64,000 bases of DNA from the human T2T-CHM13v2.0 reference genome, Homo sapiens: assembly GCF_009914755.1 (NCBI RefSeq), contig NC_060926.1; one strand, 5' to 3'. The position numbers and the translations under genes were made by a program. Shown here one piece after another: positions 1,451 through 30,090 of this stretch; position 1 is the stretch's first letter; each line of letters opens with the position of its first letter. A model generated the notes under the pieces. That model was not told the origin of the DNA. It worked only from the letters and a program-made list of their open reading frames with translations, and did no database searches.

Positions 1451-3334
1451 CGTTGCCAAAATATTAAATATTGAATACTAAGGGAGCAGCCTCATATCAG
1501 TAAACTCTCATATCTAATTATATAGTCTACTACTCCTTATCCAATGACCAGAATTTTCATGGACAAGCTGGTAAGCATTGAGGCCCACTTAAATTATTTT
1601 AAATATATATTTTAGTTAAAAATAAGCAAAAATGTGCACAAATAAATATTCTATCTATGGTCTCACAGTTTTCCAATGGGCTTATGTTTATGTGCATGAT
1701 TTCTAGTAGGTGAGAGTTAACTTGGAATTTTCAGTTCTTTCCAAATGCATTACTGTCCTTATTTCAATGCCCTTCAAAGTTTATCGGCATTTAACTGAAA
1801 TCTGCTAACTGTAGAAAAATAGAAACATATTTTGAAAATAGTCAGATCCCAAATACAAACAGTTATATATTTACACAATCTGATGCTTGCATTTGCAAAA
1901 TATTTAATGAGTTTAAAAGTCAGATTCATTATTTAAACAACTCATGGGACAAATATTGAAAAAGAAGTAACTTTATTTAGTACAATTCCAGAAATATTAT
2001 AAGAAATCTTATTTTAAATCTGATACAAGGGATTCATTTATATCTTGGCATTAGGAAGAGATAAAGAGCAGATGACAGAGAAGGGTGTGTAATTAAAATG
2101 GAGGATGGTGGCTTATCTGAAATACAGACTGCTGAATTTTAATTTCCTTCTGACATATTGAAAAGTTTTGCTGAACTTAAACCTACTTATTGTTGAGCCT
2201 CTACTGGGTGTACATTGATAAAACCTTCTCTTCATGAAGATTTTCTTGACTCTAAGATAGAGATATTGTTTGTGCACTTGAAGGTTTCCACTATGCCCAT
2301 AACTTCTTGTGCTCCATTTTCCTATCTGCCTGTGGAAAACCAAACCCTTTTCTTACAGCTTTGCAATTGTCTTAATGACCTTTATAAGTGTGTTGGCATT
2401 ATCCCTCATTAATATACTCTAAAACCCTAGATTGACCTAAGAACTTATTTCATATAGTAATTGCTAAACAGAAAAGTTTAACTGCTTTCCAAAACAGTAA
2501 TGCAAATGATTCAATAAGGATCTTTCCTAATTACACTCTGGCAATTTGTGTTTTCCAATATTCACTAATTCACATAACCAGTATTACTATGTTACATTGT
2601 AGATACATATCTGTTGGCCACCCTAGCATCATGTAATTTAGTCTTATGAGTTTTATAAAGAAGGAATTGACGGTGAAACAGGTAACCATTTTTCTTGTTA
2701 ACACCTTGACAATTAGTTATTATCTTATTTCATCTAATCTAAGACATGATAGATTTTCAGAGTAACCATTATTTCATGTGTACTATTAAGAAAGAAAACC
2801 TACAGCTAAAATGGGCATTCTTTTATTATAAGATCAACCTAAATTACAGAGACTGTTAAAACGTATTTTGAGAATTTTCATTTTAGCATTATAAAATATG
2901 GTAAATAAAATGCATTCTCCATCCATCAAAAATAGAACTCAGTATTTAATAGTATTTATGAAATTCTGTAGAATATACACCTAATAAATATCAGACAGAC
3001 CTACACTAAAAAGCATTCAAATGTGCATAAAAATGTAACTTATCAAGGACCTATTCTAATTTAATGAGTGAAATAATAAGAGAAATGTGTCAGATATTTT
3101 TCTGCCCTCTTCAGCTTCCAGTGAAATCCCACATTGAAAACTGGCTTACATAAAACCTAAGGCGAATCTACCAGGCTTTCTACAAATGAGTATTATTGCC
3201 AGAAAATTAGGCAGTTCTTCTAAGATGTTTTTCTAGATATTAAAGTTCACAAAGTAGAATATGTGGTTGTAAGTAGCAGTATTACAAGGTCTGCTCAACT
3301 TTCTTCAAGTTGAAATAATAGTACACAATTAATT

Positions 3335-3806
3335 ACTCTCAACAAATGGCATGAGAACAAATGGACACCCATGTGCAAAAAATTGAGCCTAGACACAGAC
3401 CTTCCACCTTTCACAAAAATTAACTCAAAATGAACTATAGACTTAAATGTAAAATGCAAAACTATGAAATACCTAGAAGACAACATAGGAGAAAATCTAG
3501 ATGACCTTGGGATTGGTAATGACTTTTCAGATACCACACCAAAGGCACATCCATGAAAGAAAGGATGAATCAACTTTATCAAAATAAAAATGGTCTGTTC
3601 TGCAAAAGACCCTGTTAAGATAATGAAAAGGAAAGCCATACACAAAAAAATATACAAAATAAAAAAAAATTGAAAAGAGAAAAGAAAAGCCACAGACAGA
3701 AAAATTGTTTCCAAAAGGCATATCTGATAAAGGATTGTTATCAAAAATATACAAAGAACTCTTATGACTCAACAATAAAAAAAACCAACAACCCAATTTA
3801 AAAATG
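3335..3806 (+). mobile_element. Old L1M (L1MC-like) ORF2 3' fragment, 5' part of an interrupted element
   Basis: Typical L1M ORF2 end (acaaaaattaactcaaaatg...ctagaagacaacataggagaaaatc). It stops at cccaatttaaaaatg and resumes at ~10400. Confidence 0.8.
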
Positions 3807-3807
3807 A

Positions 3808-4220
3808 AATCAACCTATGTGTCCACCAATGGATGATTGAATTTAAAAATGTATACCATGGAAAACTATTCAGTCATACAGAAGAATGAAGTTGTTTTTT
3901 GCATCAACATGGACAGAACTGGAGGCCATTACCCTAAGTGAAATTACTCAGAAACAGAAAGTCAAATATCACATGGTTTCACTTGAAAATAGGAACTAAA
4001 CAATGGGTAAACATGGACATACAGAGTGGAAAAATGAACACTGAAGACTTGGGAGGCTTAGAGAGGGAAGATGGTTGAAAAATTACCTATTGGGTACAAT
4101 TTTCACTATTTGAATGATGGGCACACTAAAAGCTTAAGCTTCACCACTATGCAATATATTCATCTAATAAAACTGCACTTGTAACCCCTAAATCTATAAA
4201 AAATTAAAAATTGTAAAAAC
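3808..4220 (+). mobile_element. L1PB/L1MA-type 3' end
   Basis: atcaacctatgtgtcc...aattacctattgggtacaat...ctgcacttgtaacccctaaatctataaaa followed by an A-rich tail. Confidence 0.75.
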
Positions 4221-5234
4221 TGAGAATCCCTCCAAGATGGCCAAATAGGAACAGCTCCAGTCTACAGCTCCCAGCATGAGCAATGCAGAAGACAGGTGAT
4301 TTCTGTATTTCCAACAGAGGTACTGGGGTCGTTTCACTGGGACTTGTTGGACAGTGGGTGCAGCCCATGGAGTGTAAGCTGAAGCAGGGTGGGCATCACC
4401 TCACCCGGGAAGAGCAAGGGGTTGGGGAATTCCCTTTCCTAGCTAAGGGAAGCCATGACAGACGGTACCTGGAAAATTGGGACACTCCCACCCTAATACT
4501 GCACTTTTCCAATGGTCTTAGCAAATGGCACACCAGGAGATTATATCCCACGCCTGGCTCAGAGGGTCCCACACCCATGGACCCTTCCTGACTACTAGCA
4601 CAGCAGTCCGAGATCAAACTGCAAGGTGGCAGCGAGGCTGGGGGAGGGGCATACGCCATTGCTGAGGCTTGAGTAGGTAAACAAAGCGGCTGGGAAGCTC
4701 AAACTGGGTGGAGCCCGCCACAGCTCAACAAGGCCTGCCTGCCTCTGTAGACTCCACCTCTGGGGGCAGGGCATAGCTGAACAAAAGGCAGCAGAAACCT
4801 TTTTAAACATCCCTATCTGACAGCTTTGAAGTGAGTAATGGGTCTCTCAGCACAGAGTTTGAGATCTGAGAATGGACAGACTGCCTCCTCAGGTGGGTCT
4901 CTGACCCCCGAGTAACTGGAAGACAGCTACAAGTAGAGGCCGACTGACATCTCATACAGCCGCATGCCTCTCTAAGACGAAGTTTCTAGAGGAAGGATCA
5001 GGCAGCAATACTTGCTATTCTGCAGCCTCTGCTGGTGATGATACCCAGGCAAACAGGGTCTGGAGTGGACCTCCAGCAAACTCCAACAGACCTGCAGCAG
5101 AGGGTCCTGACTGTTAGAAGGACAACTAACAAACAGAAAGGAATAGCATCAACATAAAAAAAAATGACATCCACACCAAAACCCCATTTGTAGGTCAACA
5201 TCATCAAAGACCAGAGCTAGATAAAACCACAAAG

Positions 5235-12249: not shown

Positions 12250-15150
12250 TCTTAGGAATATACGTATTCCTACGATAATAAATGCTTGATGCTCCACGTA
12301 TTCTTTCTGACTCTGTATTTCTTCCACCACTAGTGGTACCAACTATCCTCAATTTTATTATTCATGGTTTTGCTGTCATGTTATGGTATTATTCACTCAT
12401 GGATGCTTTCTGATGTGATATATCTTTTTTTTTTTAGCTTTATAAATATCAAGGTTTTTCTCCCCTAACATGCACCTATGCTGTTGCATGTAACTATAGC
12501 TCATTCATATTCCCTATTTTATACAATTCAACTGTTTGAGTCTCCCCAAATTTACTTACCCCATTTTCCTGAATGCCATTTGGTTTGTGTTCAGGGGATC
12601 AATGTTTGTTTGTTTTTCCTATTGTGAACAAGACACACTGCACATTCATGCCAGACCTCCTGCAAACCAGTAAGTTTCTCAAGTGAACACACACACATTC
12701 ACACAAACACAAAGAAATGGATGAACTGTGTTTTATAATGTGTCCACCTTTATGAGTTAATGCTTTTTAAAAGTGAATTATTTATACCTCTACCAGAAGT
12801 ATAAAAGTACATTCAGTCCTCCATATTTTTGCCAACATTTAATATAGCCAGGATTCTTGACTTGTGTTATGTGTTGCTTTGTAACCAATTTGGGGGTATA
12901 AAATGCTATCCTATTGTCGGATTAATTACCATTTTTCTGATCAGTAATGTAATTATGCATTCTTTTATTTCATTCACATTGTTTTTTCTCTTTTGTAAAA
13001 TATCTCCTAATGTATTATGCTTACATCAAGGTTGAATCATTGATTATATATGGGTTTTGAGGCATGGTTTCTTTCAGCAAATTTTTTTGAGATTCATAAA
13101 TTCTTCGGGTAGTTGTAGTTCATTCTTTTTTATTATTGAGTACCATTTGGCTGTATACACTTTATCAGTTTTTCTATTGACAGTTTTTGACTATTATGAA
13201 TAAAGAGGCTCTAAATAGTTGCTTGTAAACAGTCATTGCCTGAACATAGTTTTTTTCTTTAATTTTCCTTGGGCAAATAGCTGAAAGTGAAGTTGTAAGG
13301 TCATATGGTAAGTATGTTTAACACTTACCAAAGCTGTTAGTTTTTCAGTGTCTATATGCAATTTTATATTCTCACTAGAAATGGATGAGTGTTACAGTTT
13401 TGCCAATCCCTACTACCACTTGATATTGTCAGTCTTCTTGATTATAACCATTCCAGTGGATGTGCAGTAGAATTTCATAATGGTGTTGAGTCGCATTTTA
13501 GTGCAACTCATGATGTTTCACATCTTTTCATTTGGTTATCGGTCATTTTTATATCTTCCATGTGAAATATTCCGTTGTTTTTTCCTATTTGGGGAGCCGA
13601 GTACCTTTTCGTAATTTAATTGTGAATGTTTATATATTCTAAATAAAAGCTGTTTTTCAGATATATGTATCATGTTTCACAGCGGGGTTTTTTCCACTTT
13701 GTGGCTTGTAATATATTTTCTTAATAATATTTTTAAACAACATAGGTTTTTGATTCAATAAAACACAATTTATTACTTTTTCTTACATGGCTCATGCTTT
13801 TTCTGTTTTTACTAAAAATATTTGTTTATCCCCAAATTGCAAAAATTTTCCCCATGTTTTCTTCAAGAAATATTATAACTTTAGTTTTTTTAGATTTACG
13901 TTTATACACCACATTTTAAGTTGATATTGTTGTACGTAAGATAAAGGTTCAAGTTCATGTTTGCTAAGTTATGTCTTGTTGCTCTGCATCTAATTTTTTG
14001 GTATTGAAAAAATACGACACATATATTTTCCCATTGACACATCATGGTAGTGTTCGTAAGAATGTTAGTGGACCATATACACTGTGGGTCCATTTCTAGA
14101 TTCTCTTCTGTTTCATTGACCTATGCAAATTTCCCTAGAGTCAGTCTTGGAATCAAATAGTTCAAATATTCAAGTTTTGTTATTCTTTAGCAAAACCCTT
14201 TTGGCTGTTTTAATTCCTCTTGTCAATATAACATATTTAATTATAGTGATAATTTTATGCTAAAGTCAATTGGCATTTTGATTTGAATTTCACTGAAGCT
14301 GTTTATCAATTTGATGAGAACAGATACCGTAGCATTATTGAATCTTCTGATTCCTAAACATGGCATATCTCCATTAATATATATATTATTTAATTTCTCT
14401 CAGGAGTGCAATTATAACACTCATTATTGCTTTTAAATTTTCAATTTCCAATTGTTCATTGTAAAAATATAAAAATATAATTGATTTTTTGTGTATTAAC
14501 CATGTATTCTGTGATCTTGCTAAACTCACATATTAATGTTTAGTGGAATTTTTTGTAGATTGCTTTGGATTTAATATATACACAATTATGGCATCCGACA
14601 ATAAAGACAATATCCTTATTTATATATCTGTATGTTTTATAATTGCTATTATTTATTTTCCTTTCCTTAATTCACTGGTTAGGAATTCTAGCGGAAGTCG
14701 TAAAGTGGCCATTATTGGTTTGTTCTTGATATTAGGAAGAAAATATTCTTTTTCATTATGAAATGTGATGTTAGTATAGGTTTGTTGTATATGTCCTTTC
14801 TCAGATTGAGAAAATAGGTATTTAAATTTTTCAAATTATTTTTCAGCATTCATTAATTGAGTTGGTAGAATGCTGTTTTCCTCTTATATTCTCCCAATAT
14901 AATGAAACATATAAAATGGTTTTCAAAAGTTGCAACAGTATTTTTATTTTGCTTGAAATTTGTTTCACAGTAGGATATATTGACTATATTGGTGAATATT
15001 TCATGTACTGCAGTTGAATATGTATTTTTCAGTAAGTATGTGATACATTCTGTTAGGTTGATTGATAACATCTTATATATTCTTATTGGTGTTCTCTGTG
15101 TGTATTCTATTATTTACTCATCGAATAGTCGATATCTAGAACCATAATTG
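12250..15150 (-). mobile_element. Highly diverged L1M fragments (antisense)
   Basis: T-rich antisense L1 3'UTR/ORF2-like text, e.g. agcattattgaatcttctgattc and gtattctgtgatcttgctaaactcac. Continues at 15592-15925 and 16832-17560. Confidence 0.65.
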
Positions 15151-15166
15151 TGGATTTGTCTTTTTC

Positions 15167-15525
15167 TCTTTTTTTTTTTTTTTTTAATTATACTTTAAGT
15201 TTTAGGGTACATGTGCACGTTGTGCAGGTTAGTTACATATGTATACATGTGCCATGCTGGTGCGCTGCACCCACTAACTCGTCATCTAGCATTAGGTATA
15301 TCTCCCAATGCTATCCCTCCCCCTTCCCCCCTCCCCACCACAGTCCCCAGAGTGTGATATTCCCCTTCCTGTGTCCATGTGATCTCATTGTTCAATTCCC
15401 ACCTATGAGTGAGAATATGCGGTGTTTGGTTTTTTGTTCTTGCGATAGTTTACTGAGAATGATGGTTTCCAATTTCATCCATGTCCCTACAAAGGACATG
15501 AACTCATCATTTTTTATGGCTGCAT
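15167..15525 (-). mobile_element. Young 5'-truncated L1 (L1PA2/early non-Ta L1HS-like) 3' end
   Basis: Poly(T) followed by a near-consensus 3'UTR with the GAG diagnostic (cccactaactcgtcatctagc). 15-bp TSD ggatttgtctttttc at 15152-15166 and 15577-15591. Confidence 0.93.
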
Positions 15526-15577
15526 CGTTTTTTCACTGACCCGGTGAGGCGGGGGGGTGAGCCCCGAGGGGCTCTCG
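15524..15577 (+). pseudogene. 28S (LSU) rRNA fragment, ~54 bp, inverted relative to the adjoining L1
   Basis: atcgttttttcactgacccggtgaggcgggggggtgagccccgaggggctctcg matches recalled human 28S (...CTCTGATCGTTTTTTCACTGACCCGGTGAGGCGGGGGGGCGAGCCCCGAGGGGCTCTCGCTTC...) with one C>T at a CpG. Confidence 0.88.
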
Positions 15578-15925
15578 GATTTGTCTTTTTCACCCACCAG
15601 TTTGATGTGTGGTTTGTTATATACATCAAAGCTCTGATTTAGATCTTTCACATATACCTTCTTAACAAGTTTACTGCTTTATTATTATAAACCGTTACGT
15701 TTTATGCTTGGTAATATTCTGTCTTCTGAGGTCTATTTTGTTAATATTGTAGAGTCAAATCAGTTTTCTTAATATTAGTGTTTGCATGGTGCATATTTTG
15801 CCATTGTTTTACTTTGTCATATTTTTATCTTTAAAGTGAGTTTCTTGCAGAGAATACTTAAGGCTCTTTTATTTTTTATTCATTCTAATCTGAATCTCTG
15901 ACATTTGATTGAAATTTTAGACTAT

Positions 15926-26903: not shown

Positions 26904-26978
26904 GTTAAGATGGCAGAGCCCAGCAATTGCATAAATCTTAAAACTTTATAATCAGAGGTTCGACTCCTCTTCTTAACA
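26904..26978 (+). pseudogene. MT-TL1-like: NUMT tRNA-Leu(UUR)
   Basis: gttaagatggcagagccc...cttaaaacttt...cttcttaaca. Confidence 0.9.
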
Positions 26979-26980
26979 AC

Positions 26981-27930
26981 ATGCCTATAACTAACCTTCT
27001 CCTACTCATTATCCCCACTCTTATTGCTATAGCATTCTTTACACACATCAAACGCAAAATTTTAGGCTATATACAACTATGCAAAGGACTGAACATTGTA
27101 GGTTCCTACGAGATGCTTCAACCATTCAGTGATGCAATAAAACTTTTCACCAAAGAACTGTTACAGCCCTCAGCAAGTACTATTACCCTTATATTACTGC
27201 TCCAGTCCTTGCCCTTTCTATCACTCTCCTCTTACAAACTCCCCTCCCTATACCAAATCCTCTAGTTAATTTTAATATAGACCTCCTTTTTATACTAGCC
27301 ACATCAAGCCTGACCATCTATTCTGTGATCAAGATGAGCACCTAATTCAAAATATGCACTAATGAGTCCATTACAAGTTATGGCCCAGACAATGTCTTAT
27401 GAGGTCACCCTAGCCATTATCCTACTATCAGTCCTACTGAGAAGCGGCTCGTTTAACTTACCAAACACTCGTCATAATGCAAGAATTCGTATGACTGCTC
27501 CTACCATCATGGCCCCTAGACATAATATGATTTATCTCCACACTAACTAGCAGAAACTAACTGAGCCCCTTTTGATCTAGCAGAAGGATAGTCAGAGTTA
27601 GTCTCAGGCTTCAACATTGAATATGCTGCAGGCTCATTGGCCCTCTTTTTTATAGCAGAATACATGAATATTATCATAATAAATGCCCTAACCTCTTACT
27701 TTCCTAGGAGCACGACACATGATATATTCACCAGAACTCTATACCACAAATTTCATTACCAAAACCCTTCTTTTAACCACCCTATTTTTTATGAATTTCA
27801 ATGGCATACCCTCGATTCCACTACAACTTACTCATATACCTTCTGTGAAAAAACTTCCTACCACTTACACTAGCATTCTACATATATCTCAATGCCTGTC
27901 CTAATTTCCAGCATCCCACCCCAAACATAA
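26981..27930 (+). pseudogene. MT-ND1-like: NUMT ND1 pseudogene
   Basis: [19 protein letters not shown]...[11 protein letters not shown] and [19 protein letters not shown]; frameshifted. Confidence 0.95.
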
Positions 27931-28136
27931 GAAATATGTCTGACAAAAGAATTACTTTGATAGAGTAAATAATAGAGATTAAATTCCTCTTATTTCTAGA
28001 ACTATAGGAATTGAACCTACCCCTGAGAATTCAAAATTCTCCATTCTACCTATTACACCATGTCCTAGAGTAAGGTCACCTAAATAAACCATCAGACCCA
28101 TACCCTGAAAATGTTGGTTACACCCTTCCCATACTA
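27930..28136. pseudogene. NUMT tRNA cluster Ile(+, 27930-27998), Gln(-, 27997-28067), Met(+, 28069-28136)
   Basis: agaaatatgtctgacaaaagaattactttgatagagt and agtaaggtcacctaaataa...cccataccc. Confidence 0.9.
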
Positions 28137-29179
28137 ATTAATCCCTTGGCTCAACTTATTATTACTCTTACTATTTTCACAGGAACTCTTATCACCACAA
28201 TGCTAGGCTCACACTGATTTCTCATCTGAACAGGCCTGGAAATAAACATACTAGTCCTTATCCCAAACTTAACTTAAAAAATAAATCCCTGCTCTGCAAA
28301 AGCAGCCACTAAATATTTCCTTACACAAGTAACTGCATCCATAATTCTCATGATAGGTATCCTTTCCAATAGGCTGTCCTCCAGACAAGGAACAATAATA
28401 AACACTATTAATCAATGTTCATCCTTAATAATAATAGTAGCCCTAATGATAAAACTAGGAATAGCCCCCCTTTCACTTCTGAGTCCCAGAGGTAACCCAA
28501 GGAATCTCTTTAACATCTGGTATACTTTTTCTCACATGACAAAAACTAGCCCCTATCTCGATCATGTTTCAAATTTTCCTATCAACACGAACATCCTCCT
28601 GTTGATCACAATCCTATCCATTATAGTGGGTGGTTGAGGAGGACTTAACCAAACACAATTGTGTAAAATCCTAGCCTACTCCTCAATCACTCACACAGAC
28701 TGAATAATTAGCAGTACTAATCTATAACCCAAACATTACCATTCTAAACTTTATTATTTACCTCATCTTAACAACAACTGCATTTCTAGCACTCAACCTG
28801 AGTATAAGCACCACAACCCTGTCACTGTCTCATGCCTGAAACAAATTAGCATGGTTGACACCTATAATTCCACTAATTCTATTATCCCTAGGAGGTTTAC
28901 CCCCATTAACAGGGTTCCTGCCTAAATGAATCATCATCCAAGAATTTACAAAAAACAATAGCCTTATTACACCAACCATTATAGCTATCATAACCCTACT
29001 CAACCTGTACTTTCATATAAGCCTAATTTATTCCATCTCAGTGACACTATTCCCTGCATCTAATAATATGAAAATAAAATGACAATTCGAAAACACAAAA
29101 CCCACACTACTCTTCCCCCGACTTCTCATCTCTTCTACCCTCCTCTTACCCATCTCTCCATTAATACTAACCATAACTT
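28137..29179 (+). pseudogene. MT-ND2-like: NUMT ND2 pseudogene
   Basis: ATT start after tRNA-Met; IKLGIAP; ggaggacttaaccaaacacaa; frameshifts. Confidence 0.95.
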
Positions 29180-29563
29180 AGAAATTTAGGTTAAATAAGA
29201 CCAAGGGCCTTCAAAGCCCTTAGTAAGTAAGTCACACTTAATTTCTGTAACAGGTCTGAGGACTGCAAGACTCTATTCTGCATCAATTGAACGCAAACCA
29301 AGCATTTTAATTGAGCTAAGCCCTTGCTAGATTGGTGGAATTCAAACCCATGAAAATTTAGTTAACAGCTAAACACCCTAATCAACTGGCTTCAACCTAT
29401 TTCTCCTGCTGTTGGGGGAGAAAGGCAGGAGAAGCCCCGGCAGGATAGAAGCTGCTCCTTTAAATTTGCAACTCAACATGAGAAATCACCTCAGCGCTGG
29501 TAAAAGGAGGCCTTGACCTCCATCTTTTGATTTACAGTCTAACGCTTACTCAGTCATTTTACC
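29180..29563. pseudogene. NUMT WANCY tRNA cluster with the light-strand origin (OL ~29400-29434)
   Basis: Trp(+) 29180-29247, Ala(-) ~29257-29325, Asn(-) ~29327-29399, OL stem ttctcctgct/ggcaggagaa, Cys(-) ~29433-29498, Tyr(-) ~29499-29563. Confidence 0.9.
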
Positions 29564-29578
29564 TTTTTTTCCCCACTT

Positions 29579-30090
29579 ATGTTCATCAATTGTTGATACC
29601 ACAAAGATATAGGAACACTAAAAGTGCTATTCGATGCGTGAGACGGGATAATAGGCACCGCCTTAAGCCTTCTAATTCGAGCAGACTTAGGCCAACTAGG
29701 AACTCTGCTAGGAGATAATCAGATCTACAATGTTATTGCTACCGCCCACGCATTCGTTATAATTTTCTTTAAGGTAATACCAATCATGATGGGGGGTTTC
29801 AGCAACTGTCTACTCCCTCTGATAATTCGTGCACCGATATGGCATTCCCCCGGATAAATAATATGAGCATCTGACTTCTCCCCCCATCTTTTCTACTCCT
29901 ACTTGTGTCCTCAATAGAAGCCGGCGCTGGAACCAGCTGAACAGTTTATCCCCCTTTAGCAGAAAACCTAGCACATGGAGGAGCCTCTGTGGACCTGATC
30001 ATCTTCTCGCTCCACTTAGCAGGTATTTCTTTTATTTTAGGGGCCATTAATTTTATTATCACAATTATTAACATAAAACCCCCCGCCATA
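29579..30090 (+). pseudogene. MT-CO1-like: NUMT COX1 5' third
   Basis: Ends in [32 protein letters not shown], then is truncated. Confidence 0.95.

What the first reader, a model, noticed from the sequence alone, without database searches (positions are those of the whole stretch)
15152..15591. Young L1 fused to an inverted 28S rRNA fragment within one TSD: possible twin priming in trans on ribosomal RNA
Seen: one perfect 15-bp TSD (ggatttgtctttttc) brackets a minus-strand poly(A), ~340 bp of near-consensus L1 3' end, and 54 GC-rich non-L1 bases at the L1 5' junction. Recalled: those bases match human 28S rRNA around helix 79/ES31L, in the orientation opposite to the L1. Well-known small-RNA/L1 chimeras such as U6/L1 are co-oriented, whereas an inverted segment abutting the 5' TSD is the geometry of L1 twin priming. 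Junction microhomologies are 2 nt (at, L1/28S) and 1 nt (g, 28S/TSD). Inference: the second-strand 3'-OH primed ORF2p reverse transcription on a different RNA, possibly the ribosome associated with the L1 RNP, and the two cDNAs were then joined.
Basis: partly seen in the sequence, partly recalled or inferred. Interest (0 to 1): 0.8.

Follow-up and report, generated by a model that had tools for sequence, protein, structure and literature searches.

The report
L1 insertion carrying inverted 28S piece
One L1 retrotransposon insertion carries, at its truncated end, 54 bases copied backwards from 28S ribosomal RNA; this kind of chimera and its proposed mechanism are already published, so this is a new example rather than a new phenomenon.

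Summary
A perfect 15-bp target-site duplication (15152-15166 and 15577-15591) brackets three parts. They are an A17 tail, 340 bp of L1 3' end on the minus strand, and 54 bp (15524-15577) that match 28S rRNA at 53 of 54 positions. The 28S piece runs in the opposite orientation to the L1.

The L1 is not L1HS. It carries the GAG diagnostic (L1PA2 or older) and has only 2 private differences in 340 bp.

The geometry is what priming of reverse transcription from the second-strand 3'-OH on a 28S RNA would give. That makes trans twin priming the best explanation, at about 0.6. A single locus cannot exclude end-joining capture of an rRNA cDNA.

The idea is not new. Doucet et al. [quoted passage not shown] Law and Burns 2026 catalogued 18 28S/L1 chimeras, 3 of them antisense. 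This locus is not in their tables.

One added clue: an independent chr14 L1PA3 chimera holds the same 28S piece (about 4078-4129) in sense orientation, and a chr8 chimera shares its 5' end. This points to a discrete 28S fragment or a fixed reverse-transcription entry and stop, rather than random priming on a ribosome.

The parts
15152..15166 (.). Left copy of the 15-bp target-site duplication, GGATTTGTCTTTTTC. Its 3' end on the + strand is the first-strand primer.
   Evidence: Exact direct repeat with 15577-15591. Read in L1 orientation the cleavage site is GT/GAAA. That meets the 1T/3A criterion used in Table S3 of PMC13174262.
15167..15185 (-). Poly(A) tail of the L1 copy: A17 followed by GA on the minus strand.
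   Evidence: Read directly from the sequence.
15186..15525 (-). 5'-truncated L1 3' end of 340 bp, L1PA2-like. It carries GAG and A at the 3'-UTR diagnostic sites.
   Evidence: Genome hits at 96-99% identity. Alignment with 17 fetched copies plus a published L1HS and a published L1PA3 copy. 2 of 340 private differences. Meaning of GAG from a passage in PMC7026601.
15524..15525 (.). AT shared by the L1 and 28S sequences, a 2-nt junction microhomology.
   Evidence: Alignment to intact L1 copies and to rDNA.
15524..15577 (+). 54-bp 28S rRNA piece, sense on the + strand and so antisense to the L1. It equals nt 4077-4130 of a chr13 28S copy, roughly LSU-rRNA_Hsa 4040-4092, in the ES31L region.
   Evidence: 53 of 54 identical to rDNA. 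Rfam LSU match on the rDNA loci. Consensus numbering inferred from four anchor loci. ES31L range from a passage in PMC4114684.
15558..15558 (+). The only difference from rDNA: T in place of the C of a CpG.
   Evidence: Alignment. A 27-mer carrying the T occurs once in the genome, in the window itself.
15545..15562 (+). Stretch equal to the 18-nt sequence annotated as miR-6087, with 1 mismatch at 15558.
   Evidence: The miR-6087 sequence and its 28S placement come from Table 1 of PMC4969525, compared by eye.
15577..15591 (.). Right copy of the TSD. On the minus strand its 3' end (...AAATCC) abuts antisense 28S. The terminal C/G is shared with 28S, a 1-nt microhomology.

Best explanation
This is a single endonuclease-dependent L1 retrotransposition event of an L1PA2-like element.

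ORF2p nicked the + strand at ...TTTTTC/A and primed on the L1 poly(A). It copied 340 nt of the L1 3' end. After the staggered second-strand cut 15 bp away, the minus-strand 3'-OH (...AAATCC-3') was extended on a 28S-derived RNA. Extension started at about nt 4129/4130 with 1 nt of pairing and ended at about nt 4077. The two cDNA ends were then joined at an AT overlap and filled in. The result is TSD, antisense 28S, L1, poly(A), TSD.

This is trans twin priming, the model already published for inverted snRNA/L1 and other antisense L1 chimeras.

Shown here: the anatomy, the orientations, the overlaps and the single TSD. Inferred: the order of steps, the RNA nature of the template, and the enzyme.

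The template was more likely a discrete nuclear 28S fragment, or 28S with a fixed reverse-transcription entry and stop, than a random site on an intact ribosome.
For: - One exact 15-bp TSD encloses the tail, the L1 and the 28S piece. The 28S piece therefore arrived with the L1.
- No other copy of the 28S/L1 junction exists in the assembly. Only the window covers query positions 1-91 (40 of 227 candidates scored, best first). This argues against a chimeric source locus.
- Antisense 28S is continuous with the minus-strand TSD 3' end. That is the polarity twin priming requires. A first-strand template switch on sense rRNA would give the other polarity.
- The cleavage site GT/GAAA and the A17 tail are L1 endonuclease hallmarks.
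- The published antisense L1HS/28S chimera, fetched as L009, has the same layout. It has a 15-bp TSD, cleavage site AT/GAAA, antisense 28S 4543-4178 abutting the 5' TSD with a 3-nt overlap, and a 1-nt overlap to the L1.
- An RNA origin is favoured because the piece lies wholly in mature 28S. Its ends also recur in independent chimeras made by reverse transcription. The chr14 L1PA3 chimera holds 28S 4078/4081-4129 in sense orientation. The chr8 L1PA8 chimera's piece starts at the same ATCG.
- End-specific patterns that exclude rDNA found only these loci. For the 3' end, 3 of 3 genome matches were the window, chr14 and one chance hit with no 28S homology. For the 5' end, 2 of 2 matches were the window and chr8.
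- The model is in print (PMC4476161 passages; PMC13174262 passages).
Against: - Only 1 nt of pairing exists at the proposed priming site, and 2 nt at the cDNA-cDNA junction. These overlaps are equally compatible with end joining.
- From one locus, orientation gives at most about 2:1 odds against random-orientation capture.
- In the published catalogue 15 of 18 28S/L1 chimeras are sense. Second-strand priming on 28S is therefore the minority route.
- No orthologous empty site could be examined. Joint arrival rests on the TSD alone.
- Nothing here shows that ORF2p was the enzyme for the second cDNA.
Confidence: 0.6

Rival explanations
1. End-joining capture. A free double- or single-stranded DNA was ligated between the truncated L1 cDNA and the upstream target end while the insertion was being resolved. 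The DNA would be either an rRNA cDNA made elsewhere or a broken piece of rDNA. The orientation would then be a matter of chance.
For: The junction overlaps are only 2 nt and 1 nt, which is typical of end joining. Extra nucleotides at L1 5' junctions are discussed in PMC2912911 (passages). One locus cannot show an orientation bias.
Against: The piece lies entirely within mature 28S, which makes up about 5 kb of a roughly 47-kb rDNA unit. Both of its ends coincide, within 0-4 nt, with ends of pieces in independent sense-oriented chimeras. That is unexpected for random DNA breakage. A free cDNA of a discrete rRNA fragment would still fit, so this rival is weakened but not excluded.
Confidence: 0.22
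2. First-strand template switch onto an antisense rDNA transcript. ORF2p left the L1 RNA at the AT and continued on an RNA complementary to 28S. This would write sense 28S onto the + strand.
For: It yields the observed orientation and junction order. Template switching is the accepted route for sense chimeras.
Against: It requires an antisense 28S transcript. From general knowledge, not tested here, such transcripts are far rarer than mature 28S. It also does not explain why the ends match those of sense-oriented pieces copied from sense 28S.
Confidence: 0.06
3. Two separate events: a pre-existing 28S fragment at the site and a later L1 insertion, or the reverse order.
Against: Both segments lie inside one exact 15-bp duplication with no second TSD. 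A pre-existing fragment would lie outside the L1's TSD. The 28S piece has 1 change in 54 and the L1 has 2 in 340, which fits equal age.
Confidence: 0.04
4. Retrocopy of a chimeric source transcript: a locus elsewhere with antisense 28S upstream of an L1 3' end, transcribed and then retrotransposed as one unit.
For: 5' transduction-like chimeras exist (PMC13174262 abstract and section headings).
Against: No second copy of the junction is present in this assembly. Only the window itself spans it, where 40 of 227 candidates were scored, best first.
Confidence: 0.03

Closest known systems
[quoted passage not shown]
   Same: One TSD of 15 bp. A T/GAAA cleavage site. A short L1 3' end, 339 bp there and 340 bp here, with starts 12 nt apart. 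Antisense 28S abutting the 5' TSD with overlaps of a few nt.
   Different: The 28S piece here is 54 nt from about 4077-4130. The published one is about 366 nt from 4178-4543. The L1 here is L1PA2-like with GAG, not L1HS with ACG. This locus is absent from the paper's 4 readable supplementary tables. That check used an hg38 position estimated with a recalled coordinate offset.
[quoted passage not shown] 2015, MBE, PMC4476161)
   Same: The non-L1 RNA is inverted relative to the L1. The TSD encloses both segments. The endonuclease consensus is seen only when the site is read in L1 orientation. There is short complementarity between the RNA and the insertion site (passages).
   Different: The template there is U5, U1, U2 or U6 snRNA, truncated in a loop. 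Here it is an internal piece of 28S rRNA.
[quoted passage not shown]
   Same: Two reverse transcriptions start from the two ends of the staggered break. The inverted segment lies next to the 5' TSD. There is microhomology at the inversion junction.
   Different: In the canonical case both cDNAs copy the same L1 RNA. Here the second copies a different RNA.
Sense-oriented RNA/L1 chimeras such as U6/L1 and most 28S/L1, made by template switching or RtcB ligation (PMC13174262; PMC6789731, abstract start only)
   Same: A cellular non-coding RNA piece sits at the L1 5' end inside one TSD. The chr14 L1PA3 chimera carries the same 28S piece as this locus.
   Different: The orientation is opposite, so a first-strand switch or RNA ligation cannot produce this locus.
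Antisense tRNA-half/L1 and 5S(1-46)/L1 chimeras (Law and Burns 2026)
   Same: A short antisense fragment of an abundant structured RNA with recurrent ends. The authors propose twin priming.
   Different: Those pieces begin at nucleotide 1 of the RNA. This one has an internal 5' end, so it needs either a cleavage product or a reverse-transcription stop.

Membership tests
Inverted cellular-RNA/L1 chimera of the twin-priming type (Doucet 2015 Group IV 'twin'; Law and Burns 2026 antisense chimeras) | One target-site duplication encloses both the L1 and the non-L1 segment. | tested here: met
   Exact 15-bp repeat at 15152-15166 and 15577-15591. No other direct repeat brackets either part alone.
Inverted cellular-RNA/L1 chimera of the twin-priming type | The non-L1 segment is in inverse transcriptional orientation to the L1 and abuts the 5' TSD. 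| tested here: met
   28S is sense on the + strand. L1 is sense on the minus strand. The 28S piece ends at 15577, the first base of the right TSD.
Inverted cellular-RNA/L1 chimera of the twin-priming type | [quoted passage not shown] | tested here: met
   GT/GAAA meets the 1T/3A rule from the Table S3 legend. The tail is A17 followed by GA.
Inverted cellular-RNA/L1 chimera of the twin-priming type | [quoted passage not shown] | tested here: inconclusive
   Only 1 nt is shared. The published L009 shares 3 nt.
Inverted cellular-RNA/L1 chimera of the twin-priming type | Both segments arrive together, shown by an orthologous empty site. | not testable with these tools
   No primate or pangenome assemblies are held. 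Only the window's own assembly could be searched (header).
28S rRNA-derived sequence | Significant identity to mature 28S, with strand assigned by an rRNA model. | tested here: met
   53 of 54 identical, E about 1e-20 against one copy. Rfam RF02543 scores 2379 bits on the rDNA locus, with the piece at nt 4077-4130. A direct Rfam scan of the 601-bp region did not report the 54-nt piece.
Canonical L1 twin-priming inversion | The inverted segment derives from the same L1 RNA. | tested here: not met
   The inverted segment is 28S, not L1.
Template-switch or RNA-ligation chimera (U6/L1 type) | The non-L1 RNA is in the same orientation as the L1. | tested here: not met
   The orientation is opposite.
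L1HS (Ta or pre-Ta) | ACA or ACG trinucleotide at the 3'-UTR diagnostic site. | tested here: not met
   The window has GAG. The published L1HS copy L009 has ACG. Meaning of the motifs is from PMC7026601.

The most novel reading that the evidence does not exclude
A discrete fragment of 28S rRNA of about 52 nt is a recurrent substrate of the L1 reverse transcriptase. It lies in ES31L, at nt 4077-4130 of the chr13 copy, and covers the sequence annotated as miR-6087.

It has been captured at least twice with the same two ends. One capture was by first-strand switching or ligation (chr14, sense). The other was by second-strand priming (this locus, antisense). A third chimera (chr8) shares its 5' end.

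If so, the same small nuclear RNA can enter TPRT from either side of the break. The ends of rRNA pieces in L1 chimeras would then report rRNA cleavage products, or ORF2p stop sites, in the germline nucleus.
Probability: 0.4. Interest if true: 0.5.

Novelty: new member of a known kind. Interest (0 to 1): 0.3.

Why it matters
The locus adds a clean, little-decayed example to a recently catalogued class of 28S/L1 chimeras. It has an exact TSD, an intact tail, and 3 substitutions across the 340-bp L1 part and the 54-bp 28S piece. It was missed by annotation-based cataloguing, probably because the 54-bp piece lies mostly outside the masked interval 15142-15529. This suggests that short antisense rRNA pieces at L1 5' junctions are under-counted.

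The coincidence of ends with two independent sense chimeras gives a testable handle on what RNA species ORF2p meets at the second-strand end. It does not change the known picture of L1 biology.

Tried and rejected
- A direct Rfam scan of 15100-15700 at E up to 10 listed only 5 weak, unrelated matches and missed the 54-nt 28S piece. Identity was established through the genome's rDNA instead.
- A genome-wide list of dispersed copies of the piece, using a CpG-tolerant 22-mer with up to 2 mismatches, was swamped by rDNA. It gave 246 matches (controls 16 and 10) with only the first 100 listed. The 1-2-mismatch dispersed copies could not be seen. I replaced it with end-specific patterns that exclude rDNA. 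These run at 0 mismatches and so miss decayed copies.
- The chr11 hit has no 28S homology around it and was dropped as chance.
- Folding of the 54-nt piece and of a 121-nt context gave z-scores of -0.18 and -0.08. This gives no evidence of unusual stability.
- A full-text search for a 21-mer of the piece found 0 papers.
- PMC9915487 was opened for ES31L coordinates, but the version read does not contain the term.
- Phrase searches for chr2 coordinates in the supplements failed on syntax or tokenisation. A digit-prefix search worked.

Full report
**Anatomy**

The region was read on both strands. A repeat search found one exact 15-bp direct repeat, GGATTTGTCTTTTTC, at 15152-15166 and 15577-15591. 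In L1 orientation (minus strand), the following lie between the two copies:
- the right TSD copy;
- 54 bases of GC-rich non-L1 sequence (15577 down to 15524);
- 340 bases of L1 3' end (15525 down to 15186);
- A17 followed by GA (15185 down to 15167);
- the left TSD copy.

Read in L1 orientation, the cleavage site is GT/GAAA. That satisfies the '1T/3A' endonuclease-motif rule used in the Table S3 legend of Law and Burns.

**Identity of the non-L1 bases**

A direct Rfam scan of the 601-bp region did not report an rRNA match; it gave only 5 weak unrelated hits.

I then searched the window's own assembly with 15510-15600. Besides the window itself, this returned 39 matches on contig 13 at 98% identity over query positions 15-68, spaced exactly 46,970 bp apart. 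In that search, 40 of 227 candidates were scored.

Rfam places LSU_rRNA_eukarya on the + strand of these loci. One locus scored 1360 bits. A longer fetch scored 2379 bits over the complete model, at L011 1097-6179, which gives a 28S of 5083 nt.

The window piece 15524-15577 aligns to nt 4077-4130 of that copy at 53 of 54 positions, in sense on the window's + strand. It is the only rDNA-like stretch in the 64-kb window.

The single mismatch is T at 15558 in place of the C of a CpG. It occurs in no rDNA copy of the assembly; the 27-mer carrying it matches once, in the window. It is therefore most simply a post-insertion CpG transition.

A passage in PMC4114684 gives 4080-4166 (numbering of Anger et al.) as lying in ES31L. 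The helix number itself was not tested.

**The L1 part**

Genome search with 15140-15545 (minus) gave 42 matches from 40 scored of 1282 candidates. Apart from the window itself, identity was 96-99%.

I fetched 17 of the best matches with upstream flank. I also fetched two copies labelled in print: L009, which is L1HS, and L010, which is L1PA3. I aligned them all.

Intact copies read ...GGAATACTATGCAGCC... at the truncation point, and the window reads ...AAAAAACGATGCAGCC... Unambiguous L1 homology therefore starts at ATGCAGCC. The AT is shared with 28S (ATCG). Of the next 8 upstream bases, 4 also match.

Against the majority of the 17 copies, the window has 2 private differences in 340 positions. 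The median for those copies is also 2, but they were chosen as best hits, which biases them towards low divergence.

At the 3'-UTR diagnostic trinucleotide, the window and all 17 hits have GAG or TGAG-type variants of it. L009 has ACG together with the downstream G. According to a passage in PMC7026601, ACG marks pre-Ta L1HS and GAG marks L1PA2 or older.

So 'young, near-consensus' is right in the sense of low decay, but the element is L1PA2-like, not L1HS. The subfamily name is an inference, because no repeat library was available.

**Single event and polarity**

Both segments lie inside one TSD, so a pre-existing 28S fragment would have been left outside it.

On the minus strand, the right TSD copy ends ...AAATCC-3' and runs straight into antisense 28S. 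The terminal C pairs with G4130. This is the strand and polarity expected if the 3'-OH exposed by second-strand cleavage was extended on sense 28S RNA.

A template switch during first-strand synthesis would instead have put antisense 28S on the + strand, co-oriented with the L1.

No second copy of the 28S/L1 junction exists in the assembly. This argues against a chimeric source transcript.

**What is already known**

A literature search led to Law and Burns 2026 (Cell Genomics, PMC13174262; also on bioRxiv in 2025). I read the outline, the passages, sections 18 and 40, and parts 1 and 2 of supplementary file 2.
- They report 18 28S rRNA/L1 chimeras. By my count of the table rows, 15 are sense and 3 are antisense, which matches their 83%.
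- They propose twin priming for antisense chimeras of tRNA, 5S, U5 and mRNA.

Doucet et al. [quoted passage not shown]

This locus is not among the 18 rows. No coordinate beginning 1166-1170 occurs in any of the 4 readable supplementary tables. The hg38 position of about chr2:116.9 Mb that this check assumes rests on a recalled offset between assemblies. Three PDF supplements could not be read.

**Comparison with the published antisense example**

Using its printed TSD, I located the L1HS chimera of hg38 chr1:91.39 Mb in this assembly and fetched it as L009. It shows:
- a TSD of 15 bp and cleavage site AT/GAAA;
- antisense 28S 4543-4178 abutting the 5' TSD with a 3-nt overlap (CCA);
- a 1-nt overlap to the L1;
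- an L1 that starts 12 nt downstream of the start in the window.

The layout is the same as here.

**Recurrent ends: the one thing I can add**

I converted numbering through four anchor loci. On that basis the window piece corresponds to about LSU-rRNA_Hsa 4040-4092.

Two published sense chimeras have nearly the same 5' end: chr8 (4037-4362, L1PA8) and chr14 (4044-4091, L1PA3).
- In the chr8 copy (L029), the 28S homology begins at the same ATCG as in the window.
- I located the chr14 copy by anchoring the coordinate offset with a printed TSD, fetching 200 kb and running BLAST against 28S. This gave 1 hit.
- The chr14 piece runs from 4078/4081 to C4129 and then joins L1 sequence at the ORF2 start region. 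The ORF2 identification is by eye and from recall.

The window piece runs from 4077/4079 to 4129/4130. Two independent insertions therefore carry the same piece of about 52 nt, with both ends agreeing within 0-4 nt. They lie on different chromosomes, have different L1 truncation points and are in opposite orientations. A third insertion shares the 5' end.

Patterns built to detect these ends while excluding rDNA found nothing else.
- For the 3' end there were 3 matches (controls 0 and 0). These were the window, chr14, and a chr11 site without any 28S homology.
- For the 5' end there were 2 matches (controls 0 and 0). These were the window and chr8.
- Both patterns allow no mismatches apart from CpG decay, so decayed copies are missed.

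The published table also holds pairs of identical pieces joined to L1s of different length. Examples are 3637-4011 with 3635-4011, and 3637-4115 with 3636-4116. Reuse of discrete 28S pieces therefore looks general, and the authors themselves note the pile-up at 3,636.

The piece contains the 18-nt sequence annotated as miR-6087, which PMC4969525 places in 28S. PMC4338334 lists hsa-mir-6087 among doubtful rDNA-like entries. PMC6237757 reports the following for reads mapping to that hairpin and its flanks (passages):
- they are the most abundant class, at 17%, in a nuclear small-RNA fraction of HeLa cells;
- they are absent from the cell extract;
- they are mostly longer than the mature form;
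- they have non-random start points.

This is circumstantial support for an abundant nuclear fragment from this spot. A fixed reverse-transcription stop on intact 28S, caused by structure, protein or a modified base, would also explain the shared 5' end. I could not separate the two readings.

**Rivals**
- Capture of a free rRNA cDNA by end joining remains possible. The overlaps are only 2 nt and 1 nt, and one locus cannot show an orientation rule.
- Random rDNA breakage fits poorly with a piece wholly inside mature 28S whose ends recur.
- A switch onto an antisense rDNA transcript gives the right orientation but needs a rare template.
- Two separate events are contradicted by the single TSD.
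- A chimeric source locus is contradicted by the absence of a second junction copy.

**Verdict**

This is a new, uncatalogued member of a known class. The modest new clue is that a specific ES31L-derived piece is reused.

Noticed in passing
L040:2716-2765 (G000 C14:37444716-37444765): The published chr14 L1PA3/28S sense chimera carries the same 28S piece of about 50 nt as the window. It lacks the G of the first CpG and has two further changes. Between the printed 6-bp TSD and the piece lie about 12 extra bases of unknown origin.
   Followed up: partly
L029:452-793 (G000 C8:21869651-21869992): The published chr8 L1PA8/28S sense chimera starts at the same ATCG as the window piece. It joins the L1 through a GATA overlap of 4 nt.
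   Followed up: partly
L030:37-1999 (G000 C2:132715036-132716998, minus strand): A 28S-like stretch of about 2.2 kb (28S 2816-5010, 76% identical, many gaps). It is not among the 18 published L1 chimeras, and its origin was not examined.
   Followed up: no
Table S3 of PMC13174262: Pairs of 28S pieces with identical ends are attached to L1s of different length. Examples are 3637-4011 with 3635-4011, 3637-4115 with 3636-4116, and two pieces starting at 254. This suggests discrete 28S fragments as recurrent templates.
   Followed up: partly
window 15545-15562: The sequence annotated as miR-6087 lies inside the captured piece, with 1 mismatch. From recall, not tested: the annotated MIR6087 locus on chrX may itself lie in the published chrX 28S/L1PA2 chimera.
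   Followed up: partly
window 26904-30087: A block of mitochondrial pseudogenes (tRNA-Leu, ND1, ND2, CO1), according to the annotation supplied with the finding. I did not examine it.
   Followed up: no
L009:524 versus window 15525: The two young antisense 28S/L1 chimeras have L1 parts truncated only 12 nt apart (339 bp and 340 bp of L1). This may be coincidence.
   Followed up: no
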